Below, piece after piece: positions 2,585 to 55,885 of a stretch of DNA of 64,000 nucleotides. Positions within the stretch are counted from its first letter, which is position 1. Each line of letters starts with the position of its first letter. Made by a program: the position numbers and the translations under genes. The notes below the pieces were generated by a model. It was not told the origin of the DNA. It saw nothing but the letters and a program-made list of their open reading frames with translations, and did no database searches. Source of the DNA: Eledone cirrhosa (taxonomy: Eukaryota); assembly GCA_964016885.1 (NCBI GenBank), contig OZ024743.1, positions 27,094,001 through 27,158,000 on the forward strand. Reading direction: 5' to 3'.

Positions 2585-2628
2585 CACCACTGACGATGTT
2601 GCAGATGTGCAACGAAAGATTTATGATA
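2585..2628 (+). ncRNA. Degenerate minimal hammerhead ribozyme in Penelope pLTR
   Basis: CTGACGA-t-gttgca/gatg/tgcaac-GAAA-gatt-TA. Helices I and III are imperfect. Same pLTR position as the intact motif at 14771. Confidence 0.6.
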
Positions 2629-3592
2629 AACTATATATATGTGTTTGTGTCTATATTGTATCTGTATTATTTTTGACCGTCAGTCAGTCAATGGCAACCT
2701 TGAGGACCGAGTAAGTTAGATTACCGATATAAAAGACACAGAAGCGAGAAGCGAAAACCAACCAAACAGTGCGTGTGTTCTGTTATTAATTCTGGCAATA
2801 TTACACAAATATGACCCTCCCCAAGTATAACAATATTTGTTTCGACACACGATTTCATATAAAAAACCTCGCAAAATTATATATATATATATATATATAT
2901 ATATATAAATATATATATTTAGAGAGAGAGATAGATAGATAGATTGATGAATGGATGGATGTTTGGATGGATGAGTAGAAATAAAGTATTGTTGTAATGC
3001 TCATTACTTCACTTCATCTCACCAACTTGTTTTCCTAAATAGTTTTGTAAACGAAGCATATTTTGAAAATGAAATTTTGAATAGATTGATTTTCTAATGT
3101 GCATATAACGATTATGTTGAAGAAATTTAATTTCTTTTGCTCTAAACTATACTTCGTTGTAATTACTTGTTATGGTAAAGAAGTAACAATATTTTCATTA
3201 CAGATTCATGAATCCATTAATTAAAGTTTACATTACTTTCGATCTGTAAGAACCTCATAAAATGTTACACTATTTACCGATGATAATGACATACATAGAT
3301 ATAGTTAGCTATAGAAGCCGACACACAAATAGACATTGATAAAGATAGATAAATTATTGATAGGCATATAGATATATTTCTTTATTTACCATAAAGGCAT
3401 ACAAAGAAGGGACAAATACAAAGGGGGAGTTTACATAAAACCGAGTAAAAAGGGTATAAAATGAAATAATCAAAAACAACCTCAAAAGGGAGGGGACGTG
3501 ATGGGGGTTGCACCCCCCCCCCCGAAAAAGTGTGCAATCCTTTGCCCGGGGAGCACATGGAGAAGGTGCTCCCCTCTCCTTCACTTCTTTAC

Positions 3593-6500
3593 CTACAGGA
3601 TGGTATACAGAGAAGGCCCATTTACACGAGCCATTCTCGACACTATCACCCACCTTTCATAAAACTGCATGTGGCCAAGCACCCCTCTCTCCATTCTTAT
3701 CCTTCTTCCGAAGTGATATCGGAAGAAATAGACCAGACTATGGCCAGAGAGGAAGTTGCCTGACCTCAGACCTTTCAATCGTGTCCACCAAAAACCTCTT
3801 TCAACATGGCTATTATAAACCGCCTTTGCTTCCTTTGTGAAGAGGGAAGACAGCTTGATTGTCATCACGGACTCGGCGGTCAATCGAATCAGCGCCACCC
3901 GCGACAGCAGTCGTTCGGCGTACCCCACAGATCAGCCATGCCCGGACAGTGCACCAATGCGTGCGCAACGGTTTCTTCGTGACGCACGCATCTAGGGCAA
4001 ATCTTTTTCGAGGGATCCCTTCCTGGGCGCCTGTGTCTGTAGAGCTTTTCTAGAACGGGTAGAGCCCCCCGGTAGCACTGCCAGGCCAGTGACTTCTGGA
4101 AGTTGTCCATTGGTCCCGGGCTGAAAGTCCTACCGAACAGGCTGGCCAGTTCGTCCTTTTCCATGTCCAGCGACTCTCCAAGGGTGTCATCGCCCCTGCT
4201 AGCCACCAGCCCTCTATAGAATGACGAGGTGGATTCTCCACCGATGGCCGGGTCCGCTTGCCAGAGAGCCCTGAGCGCCTGGGCACACTCAGTGTGCCAG
4301 TCGCCTAGTTTTCCGGATCTTTGCTTGACCCAGGACTGCAGCTCGGTGAGCGAGACGAGTCTCGGAAAGGCTCGTCTCACGAACGGAGCCCACACCGGTT
4401 GACCAGTGAAGAATACCTGTAGGTGCCGTAGCCTTAATGCGTGCCTACGCATCATCAACCACGGCATCCCCAGCCCTCCTTTCGAAGGTTGTTGGCAGCA
4501 GATGGATCTCACCATAGGAGGGCGCTTTTTCTAAAGAAATTGAAAGAGCATACGTTCCATGGTGGTGAGTGTTTCCTTAGGGCAAGGCACGACAGTCAGG
4601 CGGTAGTAGGTGACGGACGCTATGTAAATGTTCGCCACCTTCGCCCGACCTTTCAGGGACAGCTTACACTTGGCCCATTTCTGGGTCAGTGCAAACACCT
4701 TGCTCGTAACCTCGCCCCAGTTCTTTTCCACCTGGAGGTCCGGTCCAAACCAGACCCCAAGCAAGTTCACCGGGCCCTCCGTCCAGTGTCCGACGACACC
4801 GTCGGGAGGCATCGGTCTGCCTCTCCACGTTCCGAGTTGCAGGCCAATGGATTTTTCCCGGTTCAGTTTCGCTCCTGGAAACCTTTCGTATTCCTCCAGT
4901 AAGGTGCCGATCGCCTCGATCTCCGAGTCGGTCGATACCATTACTGTCACGTCATCGGCGTAGGCCAACGCCGCTTTGCTCAATCCTGGTTCCAGGGGTA
5001 TACCCTGCAACAACTCCAACTTCCTCAGTAAAGGCTCGAGAGTCAATACGTACAGAAGGGAGGAGAGAGGGCACCCCTGTCGAATGGATCGTGTGATTTC
5101 GAACGGCTTCGAAAGGTAGCCGTTCACCTTGATCCTAGAACAGATGTGGTTGCTATGTAAGGCAGTGATCCAGCCTCTGAAAACAGGACCGAACCCAGCC
5201 GCCGCTAGCACCGCATCCAGGTAACCATGGTCGACCCTATCGAACGCCCTAGACTGATCCAAGTTGATCAGGGCCCCACCGAAGCCGGGTTTGTTGCCAA
5301 CCCTCACTATGATGTATCGCATGAGGTGGAGGTTGTCGTGAATGGACCTGGATGGGATAGCACATGTCTGCGCATCTCCCACCAGGCTACCCACGACAAG
5401 CGCCAATCTCTTTGCTAACACATTGGCCAAAATCATTAACTCTGTGTTTAGCAGGGTTATGGGCCGAAAATTATTTATACTATCCCCCTTGTTCTCGTCC
5501 TTCCTCACCAGCGAGACTACGCCCTTGGCTACAGAACAAGGAATTCTCCCGTTCTGCTGCCAATTGCAGTAGACTGCTTCGAGGAGTTCGGAGAAGAAGA
5601 CCGGCATTGCCAAATAAAGTTCGTAAGTTATACCATCGAGACCTGGAGATTTGCGTTTGCTGCATTGGCTCAGCGCATCCCCGATCTCATCAGCCGAGAT
5701 TGGTCACTCGCAGGATTCTGCCTCTTCGCTCGAGAGACGCGGCAGGCCGTCGAGGTATGGACCGAAATCCACGTCCCAGCCCGGACCCCCGCCTCCCCCG
5801 AACAATCGGGCAAAGTGCCTTTGAAAGGCCTCGCACATCTGCTTAGGCTCCCGGATCACCCGTCCATCCTCGTCTTGCAAAGACCGGATGGTGGATCGAT
5901 TTCCACTCTTAGCTTCTGTCACGCGGGCCCAGCCAACGGCTTTGGCCCCCTCATTACCTAGAGCACGTATTTTACTTCGAATGACGCAGTCTTCGTGCTT
6001 TGCATCGAAAAACTGGCTCAAGGCCGTCCTCGATGCCAGCACCCTGGCCACATCTTCGCTCTTGATTGGCTCTTCTAATTTACCTGTTAATTCTTTCTCG
6101 TTCCTATTCCTATCGGCAGCTAACATCTTGCTATAACGTATTCATTCTATTCTAATCTCTCTTTTGAGAGATGCCCACCATCGGTTGTTGACGATTGCAC
6201 CCGTCAACCTCTCCTTAACTAATCTGCTAATTCGGTCTCTGTAAGCCTCTTTTGCCGGTAAAGTCAAATTAAGTTTCCAGTACCCGGGACCCTGTCTATG
6301 TGTTCTCTCAAGGTTGACTACGCAGGTCACTAATTTGTGATCTGTATAGCCAACCGTGAGCATTTCTGGACAGCTTAAAATGTCCCTATCCTTACTTCTA
6401 ACTAAGAATCTATCTAAGTACGATCTAGATTGACCACTGTGGTTCGTCCAAGTCCAGGTTGGCACAGTTGGAAAAGCTAGTCGATATCTATCGACCAAGT

Positions 6501-7017
6501 TAAAACGGTCGAGTAACCCCTTGAGGCTGTTACACTCCCCTCTATTAGGACATGCTCCTGCATAGTCCCAACGTGCATCTAGTATGTCATTCCAGTCCCC
6601 CGCTAGAAGCAGGGAACGCGACGTTCCCAGAAAAGTCTCCAGACGCTGGAAGAAGTCGGGCCGTTCAGCTCCGAAAGGGGAGTAGACGGCGACCAGTCTC
6701 AAGGCCGCACCCCCACTACTGCCAACGTCTAGCACCAACAAACGACCTTCCGGGTCCGAGTGAACAACCTGTACGGCGAGACCCAGGTGTTTTTCCAGCA
6801 GTACGACAACCCCACCCCCACCTCCAGGTTGACAGAGAGATGCGTGCACCTCAAAGTCATCGAAGGTAGAGGCCAGCTGCCACACGACGCTGATCCGAGT
6901 CTCACAGATAACCATTACATTTATACCACGTGACCTGAGGTCATTTAGAAGCTTTGCTTGCTTCCAAGTTGAGCCCAGGCCTCGTGCATTCAAACATCCT
7001 ACTCTTAACACATCCAT
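3593..7017 (-). pseudogene. Tx1 ORF2 (APE-RT-zinc finger), frameshifted
   Basis: ORFs 6142-7017, 5704-6126, 4531-5613, 3889-4515 and 3593-3928. Confidence 0.92.
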
Positions 7018-7050
7018 GTGGGCGGCAAAGCCAAGGAAGAGTGTAGAGAC

Positions 7051-54977: not shown

Positions 54978-55145
54978 ATAGGAACGAGTAGGACCCCGAC
55001 GGCTGAGCTCAAGCCGTTTCGACGGCTAATTCTGGACTAAATGAACATTTTTATCCTGGTATATCAAGGATAAACATTTTCATTTAGTCCAGAATTAGCC
55101 GTCGAAACGGCTTGAGCTCAGCCGTCGGGGTCCTACTCGTTCCTA
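54978..55145. repeat. Palindrome containing the 3' half of a hammerhead; diverged inverted relative at ~56100-56230
   Basis: ~75-bp arms containing GAAA-cggct/tgagctc/agccg-TC-gggg. Confidence 0.8.
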
Positions 55146-55288
55146 TTACCCACTCTACTACCCTAAGTATTGAGTACTTTGGTGCGTTATGGTCCACCTG
55201 GTTCCTTACCACATTTCCATCGTTATATATATATATATATATAGTGACGAAACATAAGTCAATTGCATGAACTCATAATCCTTTATTT

Positions 55289-55344
55289 ACTGCTATATAT
55301 ATTTCGATGATAGCCATTGCATGGCTATGACCTCATCAGGCAGT
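55289..55344 (-). ncRNA. Minimal hammerhead ribozyme
   Basis: Reverse complement: actgc-CTGATGA-ggtcatagcca/tgcaa/tggctatcatc-GAAA-tatata-TA-gcagt. Confidence 0.82.
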
Positions 55345-55421
55345 TAGTCAGTTCTTAGATATGCCAGCTCTGTGTTTATGGTGTTGATGGTATTAGAGCC
55401 TTGGGACATATCATATATATA

Positions 55422-55885
55422 AATAAAATTAGTCCTTCATCAGTGATCTTCCAACCTTCATTGGTATTTCATCGCTTTAAAAATCATATACCTCTAGTTG
55501 GTGCGAGCAATAACAAATAAAGTTATTAGGACAAGTAAAATAGGGTGAAACGAGAGAGACATGTAAACAAACAACGATGGTATGGCAACGGAAAGATAGG
55601 AAGAGACAAGCACATGAAACCTGTAAGCTTAAGCTTCGGATGGTCTGTATCTCTCGTCCATGAATGCACCAAGCTTAAGCTTACAGGTTTCATGTGCTTG
55701 TCTCTTCCTATCTTTCCGTTGCCATACCATCATTGTTTGTTTACATGTCTCGCTCGTTTCACCCTATTTTACTTGTCCCAATAACTTTATTTGTTATTGT
55801 TCGCACCAACTAGAGGTATATGATTTTTAAAGCGATGAAATACCAATGAAGGTTGGAAGATCACTGATGAAGGACTAATTTTATT
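55422..55885. repeat. Inverted repeat with ~215-bp arms and a ~34-bp spacer
   Basis: 55422-55636 mirrors 55671-55885 with a few mismatches. Confidence 0.9.

What the first reader, a model, noticed from the sequence alone, without database searches (positions are those of the whole stretch)
2585..55885. Unusually dense, multi-family population of hammerhead ribozymes, mostly with palindromic (dimer-type) helix III
Seen: well-formed CUGANGA/GAAA/NUH cores with paired helices I and II at 11358, 12108(-), 14771, 15391 (with mirror at 15571), 23755, 30476, 33836, 34016, 34684 and 55289(-). Degenerate ones occur at 2585, 18755/23507, 45788, 54834 and 55395(-). They come from at least 8 unrelated sequence contexts. 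Helix III is usually a palindrome (CGAUCG, UGCGCA, UAUAUA, CUAAUUAG, ACGU, ACUAGU loop). Known: Penelope-like elements and animal retrozymes carry minimal hammerheads that cleave as dimers via such palindromes. Inference: most of these are not attached to any ORF, which implies a diverse and probably uncatalogued set of non-autonomous ribozyme retroelements in this genome.
Basis: partly seen in the sequence, partly recalled or inferred. Interest (0 to 1): 0.8.

Follow-up and report, generated by a model that had tools for sequence, protein, structure and literature searches.

The report
Octopus-like genome full of Penelope hammerheads
These are real hammerhead-ribozyme motifs, about one per 10 kb across a likely octopus genome, carried mostly on truncated ends of Penelope-type jumping genes and partly on small protein-free repeats that likely borrow their enzymes; the principle is known, but this scale and the oversized, predicted pair-wise folds appear undescribed.

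Summary
The motifs are real: 10 of 11 'well-formed' sites pass a hammerhead descriptor against about 0.01 hits per shuffle; Rfam finds none. The window is not special: 59 motifs in 60 spaced 10-kb samples extrapolate to about 295,000 (195,000-400,000) in the 3.0-Gb genome. Helix III, left unconstrained, is a perfect even palindrome in 43 of 55 (4 of 43 in shuffles), with all four Watson-Crick pair types at the centre, which favours dimer folding. Families at 11366/15399/15628, 14776, 33840, 2590 and 18818/23507 are 3' ends of protein-coding Penelope-like elements, chiefly a hugely amplified Hydra-type clade whose ribozyme lies 0.8-1.7 kb past the stop, so truncated copies look ORF-free. Four families (12225, 23761, 30482, 34690) are ORF-less head-to-tail units of about 700, 172, 523 and 635 nt, i.e. 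retrozyme-like. 34690 has a stable, non-palindromic helix III; 55395 is only a half core. New features: helix II of 25-116 nt (46 of 59), a covarying three-way junction and long palindromes. No cleavage or expression data.

The parts
1260..2294 (+). Truncated Penelope-like ORF (RT thumb, zinc linker, GIY-YIG), 64% identical to the 13299 ORF
2585..2632 (+). Relic hammerhead in the 3' end of that element (CUGA 2590, GAAA 2614; helix I broken)
11180..11556 (+). Family B stub with inverted 5' arm; hammerhead 11358-11423 with one helix I mismatch; 3' end of a Hydra-type PLE
11930..13126 (-). Family C: ORF-less unit of about 700 nt plus upstream partial copy (12998-13126); hammerhead 12108-12229, predicted cleavage after 12112, 95-nt three-way-junction helix II, palindromic helix III
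13299..14977 (+). 5'-truncated Neptune-like PLE (by motif): ORF 13299-14540, hammerhead 14771-14815 (predicted cleavage after 14810), ends at (TA)n; inverted tail copy at 13204-13289
15391..15456 (+). Family B hammerhead, predicted cleavage after 15448; Hydra-type PLE 3' end
15571..15636 (-). Mirror copy of 15391 inside a larger inverted duplication (15022-16017) centred on a TA tract
18729..18850 (-). Single-mismatch copy of an intact hammerhead family (CUGA 18818), downstream of a Hydra-type ORF remnant
20103..21821 (-). Broken Hydra-type PLE ORF (RT + GIY-YIG), 29-52% identical to the family B protein
23475..23597 (+). Inverted second copy of the 18818 family (CUGA 23507), core substitution at position 15.1
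23640..23818 (+). Family D foldback copy; hammerhead 23755-23805, predicted cleavage after 23799; parent is a roughly 172-nt tandem unit (seen once, L103)
29899..30611 (+). Family E: 523-nt ORF-less tandem unit with inverted 5' arm; hammerhead 30476-30557, predicted cleavage after 30551, 10-nt palindromic helix III
33836..33871 (+). Minimal hammerhead (4-nt palindrome), 3' stub of a decayed RT + GIY-YIG PLE family
34015..34085 (+). Hammerhead related to family B; over 660 nt of shared non-coding upstream sequence in other copies, ORF link unresolved
34190..35017 (+). Family A: 635-nt ORF-less unit plus upstream partial copy; hammerhead 34684-34765, predicted cleavage after 34759, stable 8-bp helix III (monomer type)
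45788..45921 (.). Back-to-back pair of relic hammerheads (core box mutated at 45844 - and 45851 +)
54834..54885 (+). Family B relic with a deletion through the core and helix II
55245..55420 (-). Family G stub; hammerhead 55289-55344, predicted cleavage after 55294; a sister family lies downstream of a Hydra-type ORF, own ORF link unresolved
55414..55960 (.). Family H palindrome with a CUGAUGA half core only (55443 -, 55864 +); not a hammerhead by these tests

Best explanation
The motifs are type I hammerhead folds carried near the 3' ends of many Penelope-like retrotransposon (PLE) families, chiefly a highly amplified Hydra-type clade, and on ORF-less 170-700-nt tandem units that likely depend on PLE enzymes; most would cleave or pair only as dimers through a palindromic helix III. 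Shown: motif, copy abundance, ORF links, tandem units, (TA)n junctions, covariation. Inferred mechanism: the PLE GIY-YIG nuclease nicks (TA)n DNA and its RT starts at one of two fixed AU-rich sites 40-250 nt downstream of the ribozyme, often from both target strands, leaving short 5'-truncated stubs, partial tandems and back-to-back inverted pairs that nearly always include the ribozyme. Multimeric transcripts bring two ribozymes together so that helix III forms between them; cleavage would cut multimers into unit-length RNA, which for families A, C, D, E would be a retrozyme-like linear or circular template.
For: Descriptor against shuffles. Helix III unconstrained: 43 of 55 perfect even palindromes (33 Watson-Crick, 10 with G.U) against 4 of 43 in shuffles; centre pairs A-U, U-A, C-G, G-C all occur; self-duplex -1.7 to -14 kcal/mol against positive or zero monomer energies for the short palindromes. 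Covariation in homologues collected by BLAST: family E helix II, 7 double-change cells, 0 of 500 shuffles; family C, 6 pairs with double changes including two in helix III. ORF links: ribozyme-ORF-ribozyme layout in L301 and L304, 33,340 first-look candidates for that protein; Hydra-type ORF upstream of family B in 8 of 9 fetched loci, 87,804 candidates; further Hydra links in L466, L467. Tandem ORF-less units: periods A 631-641, C 700-708, E 516-542; unit start preceded by own 3' end in 12 of 16 A and 9 of 16 C copies; longest ATG ORF 8-86 aa. (TA)5 within 400 nt downstream in 51 of 56 against 36% of random points. Inverted arm in 23 of 30 B copies. Literature: PMC4209133, PMC7229834, PMC8557442, PMC11167929, 10.64898/2026.07.22.740005.
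Against: No cleavage or expression data. Insertions never end at the cleavage site, so cleavage does not define the copied 3' end. In the one PLE tested in vitro the ribozyme needed the protein, was dispensable for insertion, and no RNA-seq ends mapped to the cut (PMC11167929); 8 of 9 Xenopus retrozyme dimers did not cleave (10.64898/2026.07.22.740005). Single-copy folds of 23761, 30482, 34023 and 55339 are no better than shuffles (z -1.8 to +0.7) and only 34690 has the hammerhead as its minimum-energy fold. Covariation rests on 4 and 7 related sequences. No autonomous partner sharing sequence with A, C or E was found. Family D passes the relaxed descriptor in 0 of 30 copies, and its tandem form was seen once. 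Clades are assigned by motif, without a tree.
Confidence: 0.82

Rival explanations
1. The folds are kept as RNA-pairing or protein-binding handles (two element RNAs held together by helix III, or a landing site for the PLE protein) and cleavage is incidental.
For: Palindromes of 8-16 nt give stable self-duplexes; catalytic mutants did not change insertion in vitro (PMC11167929); in 13 of 23 inverted B copies the inverted arm reaches further 5' than the forward arm while overlapping it by 35-185 nt, so the same RNA stretch was copied twice; family D loop orientation 12:18.
Against: All catalytic boxes are kept across about 40 clusters with otherwise unrelated stems; family A has a monomer-type helix III; one RNA could be copied twice, and a dimeric PLE protein nicking both strands explains inversions without RNA pairing (PMC11167929).
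Confidence: 0.2
2. All families are independent non-autonomous ribozyme retroelements.
For: Only 5 of 59 sampled motifs have a same-strand PLE ORF within 3.5 kb at their own locus; four window families are ORF-less tandem units.
Against: Longer copies of the commonest families run into RT + GIY-YIG ORFs; 33 of 59 sampled motifs are in such clusters.
Confidence: 0.07
3. Tandem units A, C, E are satellites amplified at the DNA level from old PLE ends, not RNA-templated elements.
For: Head-to-tail arrays exist (L124, three E units); the 2026 preprint suggests local tandem amplification.
Against: Copies are dispersed on many chromosomes, have fixed 3' ends at (TA)n, variable 5' truncation and inverted arms, typical of target-primed reverse transcription.
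Confidence: 0.08
4. Chance matches in AT-rich repetitive DNA.
For: CUGANGA boxes alone are only about 1.6-fold over shuffles (41 seen, mean 25-26).
Against: Full motif 59 against 0-1 per shuffled 600 kb; unconstrained palindrome enrichment; covariation.
Confidence: 0.01

Closest known systems
Minimal and palindromic-helix-III type I hammerheads in PLE pseudo-LTRs (Cervera and de la Pena 2014, PMC4209133)
   Same: Type I topology, helix I of 4-8 bp, palindromic helix III, position in the terminal repeats of RT + GIY-YIG elements, mostly single truncated copies, opposite-strand pairs close together; 33840 and 14776 fit directly.
   Different: Helix II is 25-116 nt in 46 of 59 sampled motifs, sometimes branched, often with U.U or C.A at its base; helix III palindromes of 8-10 nt (16 in D); estimated count about 295,000 against 2,000-9,000 reported there (different descriptors).
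Hydra clade PLEs (Craig et al. 2021, PMC8557442)
   Same: C-terminal GIY-YIG, DKT, CxCX5C linker, CxxC and CxH around the conserved E and N, no CCHH, insertion into (TA)n, hammerheads present, inverted 5' copies and optional tails.
   Different: Described as short (<3 kb), few families outside Cnidaria; here 3' UTRs of 0.8-1.7 kb, many families and 87,804 first-look candidates. No tree was built.
Animal non-LTR retrozymes (PMC7229834; 10.64898/2026.07.22.740005)
   Same: ORF-less head-to-tail units with one type I hammerhead each, low GC, co-occurring with PLEs, many monomers; U.U at the base of helix II as in axolotl HHR_Amex2.
   Different: Units of 523-700 nt exceed the 150-450 bp of the 2020 paper (within the 51-972 bp of the preprint); mostly 1-1.5 units inserted in (TA)n with PLE-type ends; circular RNA and cleavage untested; no cephalopod in the parts I read.
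Poseidon of Anolis (PAc), PMC11167929
   Same: Two RT start sites giving long and short 3' ends, AT-rich targets, both strands extended, ribozyme upstream of the start sites.
   Different: Other clade; here junctions sit at AU-rich sites resembling the (TA)n target.

Membership tests
Type I hammerhead ribozyme | CUGANGA, GAAA and NUH boxes in type I order with helices I and II | tested here: met
   10 of 11 listed sites; 20-29 of 30 top copies in six families, 0 of 30 for D under the relaxed descriptor
Type I hammerhead ribozyme | Covariation in the stems | tested here: met
   few, related sequences
Type I hammerhead ribozyme | Match to an Rfam hammerhead model | tested here: not met
   0 of 93 rows up to E 5; long helix II and short helix III likely fall outside the models
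Type I hammerhead ribozyme | Self-cleavage 3' of H17 | not testable with these tools
   needs transcription assay
Dimer-type (palindromic helix III) hammerhead | Self-complementary helix III that is unstable as a monomer hairpin | tested here: met
   43 of 55 against 4 of 43; energies; not met for 34690
Penelope-like element | Single ORF with RT and C-terminal GIY-YIG flanked by hammerhead-bearing pseudo-LTRs | tested here: met
   L301, L304; Pfam gave no family for the window remnants, so domains are read from motifs and homologues
Penelope-like element | 5' truncation, partial tandems, inverted 5' copies, optional tail | tested here: met
Hydra clade | DKT, CxCX5C linker, CxxC/CxH, no CCHH, (TA)n targets | tested here: met
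   L415, L416 translations against criteria
Hydra clade | RWK motif and grouping in an RT tree | not tested
   N-termini truncated in fetched copies; no labelled reference proteins
Neptune clade (13299 family) | CX2-5CxxC linker and CCHH in a C-terminal GIY-YIG | tested here: met
   criteria; Nematis not excluded, no tree
Non-LTR retrozyme (A, C, D, E) | ORF-less tandem repeat unit with a type I hammerhead | tested here: met
   D from one locus only
Non-LTR retrozyme (A, C, D, E) | Two or more consecutive units each with a complete hammerhead | tested here: inconclusive
   met for E (L124); A and C were seen mostly as 1-1.5 units; D one inverted-context tandem
Non-LTR retrozyme (A, C, D, E) | Highly self-paired circular RNA, expressed | tested here: inconclusive
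   circular fold z -4.9 (C), -4.1 (E), -2.1 (A), -0.8 (D) against 30 shuffles; expression not tested

The most novel reading that the evidence does not exclude
Octopod Hydra-type PLEs and their retrozymes use an undescribed class of enlarged hammerheads (50-116-nt, sometimes three-way-junction helix II with a pseudoknot to the helix I flank; 8-16-nt palindromic helix III) that pair two element RNAs, and this RNA dimer templates the back-to-back insertions from both nicked strands, making the ribozyme a dimerisation device in the densest hammerhead population yet seen in an animal genome.
Probability: 0.15. Interest if true: 0.8.

Novelty: new variant of a known kind. Interest (0 to 1): 0.5.

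Why it matters
About 300,000 hammerhead motifs invisible to Rfam, in dozens of families, would make this genome one of the richest natural sources of ribozyme variants; published counts I read are 126,247 (axolotl), over 6,000 (coral), about 5,000 (mussel), 9,000 (Xenopus). Young families (95-100% identical), intact PLE ORFs and natural monomer-type (A) against dimer-type (C, E) units in one genome make the open question of what PLE hammerheads do directly testable. It also shows that Hydra-type PLEs can dominate a mollusc genome and suggests that some 'unclassified SINE' families in octopus annotations are PLE stubs or retrozymes (inference; not checked against that library).

Tried and rejected
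Rfam scan: no hammerhead. The repeat finder was swamped by microsatellites; replaced by masked self-BLAST. Pfam names none of the PLE remnants. First ORF-link test (900 nt upstream, no Hydra proteins) wrongly suggested most families were ORF-free; corrected by walking upstream. The reversed Hydra ORF upstream of a 34023-family copy belongs to another element. One search had mis-set columns for helices I and II and is superseded. Family H tried as type I, II and III: no consistent helices. Family D as a MITE rejected: a tandem monomer exists and ends sit at (TA)n; the D query included part of the left arm, so its 30 loci are biased to foldback copies. Sequencing runs: no RNA holder listed; no reads laid. 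Earlier scan findings: none. Lunse et al. (PMC5785218) is not held and may cover some of these variants. Literature searches: hammerhead + Penelope + octopus, retrozyme + cephalopod, Hydra clade/Penelope-like/octopus, twin priming (0 papers), mollusc + stem II gave no description of octopus hammerheads; the 2026 O. vulgaris repeat paper has 0 mentions of ribozyme, hammerhead, retrozyme or Hydra in its main text. Supplements of all papers were not read and may list cephalopod families.
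Full report
Setting. The window is G000:C4:27094001-27158000 in a 3.0-Gb assembly, microsatellite-rich. The best named protein hit for its main PLE is from Octopus vulgaris at 70% identity, so an octopod is likely; this is inference.

Observation. Rfam returned no hammerhead among 93 rows up to E 5. A strict descriptor gave 5 hits against 0.007-0.017 per block shuffle; a relaxed one allowing bulged helix II gave 9 against 0.01. 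Together they cover 10 of the 11 'well-formed' sites; 11366 has one helix I mismatch. Relics at 2585, 18755/23507, 45788 and 54834 are damaged members of hammerhead families. 55395 is a half core: 19 of 20 family copies lack a downstream GAAA.

Density. Sixty evenly spaced 10-kb stretches held 59 motifs in 599,800 bases against 0-1 in each of 10 shuffles: about 295,000 motifs, bootstrap 195,000-400,000; the window is ordinary (P = 0.24). Inverted pairs count twice, so insertions are fewer; descriptor-failing families such as D are missed. First-look candidate numbers per window family were 712-2,647 and are lower bounds, not copy numbers. Motifs across all loci fell into 39-41 clusters.

Structure. 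With helix III unconstrained, 43 of 55 sampled motifs had a perfect even-length palindrome against 4 of 43 in 40 shuffles; by distinct sequence 8 of 17. All four Watson-Crick pair types occur at the centre, where a single strand cannot pair, and the short palindromes are unfavourable as hairpins but stable as self-duplexes. Family A (34690) is the exception: an 8-bp hairpin, and the hammerhead is its minimum-energy fold (z -3.3). Helix II is 25 nt or longer in 46 of 59, up to 116. Family E shows four pair types at one helix II position. Family C has a three-way junction with 6 double-change pairs in 4 sequences, and a conserved 5-bp complement between the junction linker and the helix I flank that could be a pseudoknot or an inhibitory fold; it shows no double change. 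Four of six single-copy folds were no better than shuffles.

What carries them. (a) PLE ends. 14776 and 2590 follow PLE ORFs; full copies read ribozyme-ORF-ribozyme with 1,240-aa frames, 33,340 candidates, top copies 96-98% identical. 33840 copies extend into a decayed RT + GIY-YIG ORF in 4 of 30 loci. Family B looked ORF-free in 30 loci, but longer copies share over 1.9 kb upstream and 8 of 9 fetched reach an ORF with the Hydra signature of PMC8557442, ribozyme about 1.7 kb past the stop; 87,804 candidates. The window's 20103-21821 remnant is Hydra-type and lies upstream of 18818; 2-3 of 25 other copies of that family show the same link. Two more families, one with a 99-116-nt helix II, have Hydra ORFs upstream in one locus each. 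(b) ORF-less units. A, C, E have tandem periods of 631-641, 700-708 and 516-542 nt; unit starts are preceded by their own 3' end in 12 of 16 A and 9 of 16 C copies, the rest by flank; D has a roughly 172-nt tandem in one locus. No autonomous partner was found for them. (c) Unresolved: 34023, 55339. Tally of the 59 sampled motifs: 33 in clusters with an ORF traced in at least one copy (15 of them in one broad cluster where only the B subfamily was traced), 7 in ORF-less tandem families, 19 unresolved; only 5 have a PLE ORF within 3.5 kb at their own locus.

Insertion pattern. 51 of 56 motifs have (TA)5 within 400 nt downstream against 36% of random points. Ends lie 40-250 nt past the predicted cut, at a short or a long site. 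In family B 23 of 30 copies carry an abutting inverted arm, 21 of them ending at the short site; 13 of 23 reach further 5' than the forward arm, overlapping it by 35-185 nt. Family D foldbacks have the central loop in either orientation, 12:18. Simple snap-back copying does not explain this; priming from both target strands does, as shown in vitro for PAc (PMC11167929). Inverted copies and tails are known PLE features (PMC8557442).

Mechanism. Shown: motifs, families, ORF links, tandem units, ends. Inferred: PLE-driven target-primed reverse transcription into (TA)n; dimer helix III in multimeric RNA; cleavage to unit-length RNA for A, C, D, E. Against a needed cleavage: PMC11167929 (protein-assisted, dispensable, no RNA ends at the cut) and 8 of 9 inactive dimers in the 2026 preprint.

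What I read. PMC4209133 parts 1-2 of 4; PMC7229834 parts 2-3 of 6; PMC8557442 passages and section 11; PMC6765202 passages; 10.64898/2026.07.22.740005 parts 1-3 of 5, which sampled vertebrates, insects and one coral; PMC13282606 parts 1-2 of 3 and a word search; PMC11167929 parts 1-2 of 4. No supplements. Hammerhead numbering and type definitions are established knowledge.

Verdict. Real, genome-wide and apparently undescribed in octopods, but a new variant of known kinds (PLE hammerheads, Hydra-type PLEs, non-LTR retrozymes). Interest 0.5.

Noticed in passing
window 3343-9182 (-), 43621-45077 (-), 48354-54661 (+), 56624-62338 (+): Four copies of an L1/Tx1-like LINE with zinc-knuckle ORF1, AP endonuclease and RT (Pfam); two are 91-97% identical, others about 77%.
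   Followed up: partly
window 22586-29898: About 6 kb of near-pure (TA)n with assembly gaps, the landing site of several PLE stubs.
   Followed up: no
window 31783-32655 (+): Uninterrupted 290-aa coiled-coil frame matching DUF4200; possibly a retrocopy of a ciliary gene.
   Followed up: no
window 55414-55960; L316: Family H: a 522-nt tandem unit (978 candidates) with only the CUGAUGA half of a hammerhead and a GAAA box upstream; it spreads like the other families without a recognisable ribozyme.
   Followed up: partly
window 23640-23818; L091-L120: Family D foldbacks share one junction at a 3-bp hairpin just 5' of the core, with the loop flipped relative to the long arm in 18 of 30 copies.
   Followed up: partly
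window 12203-12235 (-): Possible pseudoknot between the helix I 5' flank and the helix II junction linker in family C, 19 of 20 cells paired in 4 subfamilies.
   Followed up: partly
L410-L448: Hydra-type PLE proteins give 87,804 first-look candidates, suggesting the clade is a major genome component here.
   Followed up: partly
L226, L028, L388: Further ORF-less-looking tandem families of 434-470 nt with short hammerheads and a six-base palindrome, absent from the window.
   Followed up: no
window 15022-16017, 35402-35551, 45984-46313, 55414-55893: Long local inverted repeats, some centred on TA tracts and including flanking DNA.
   Followed up: no
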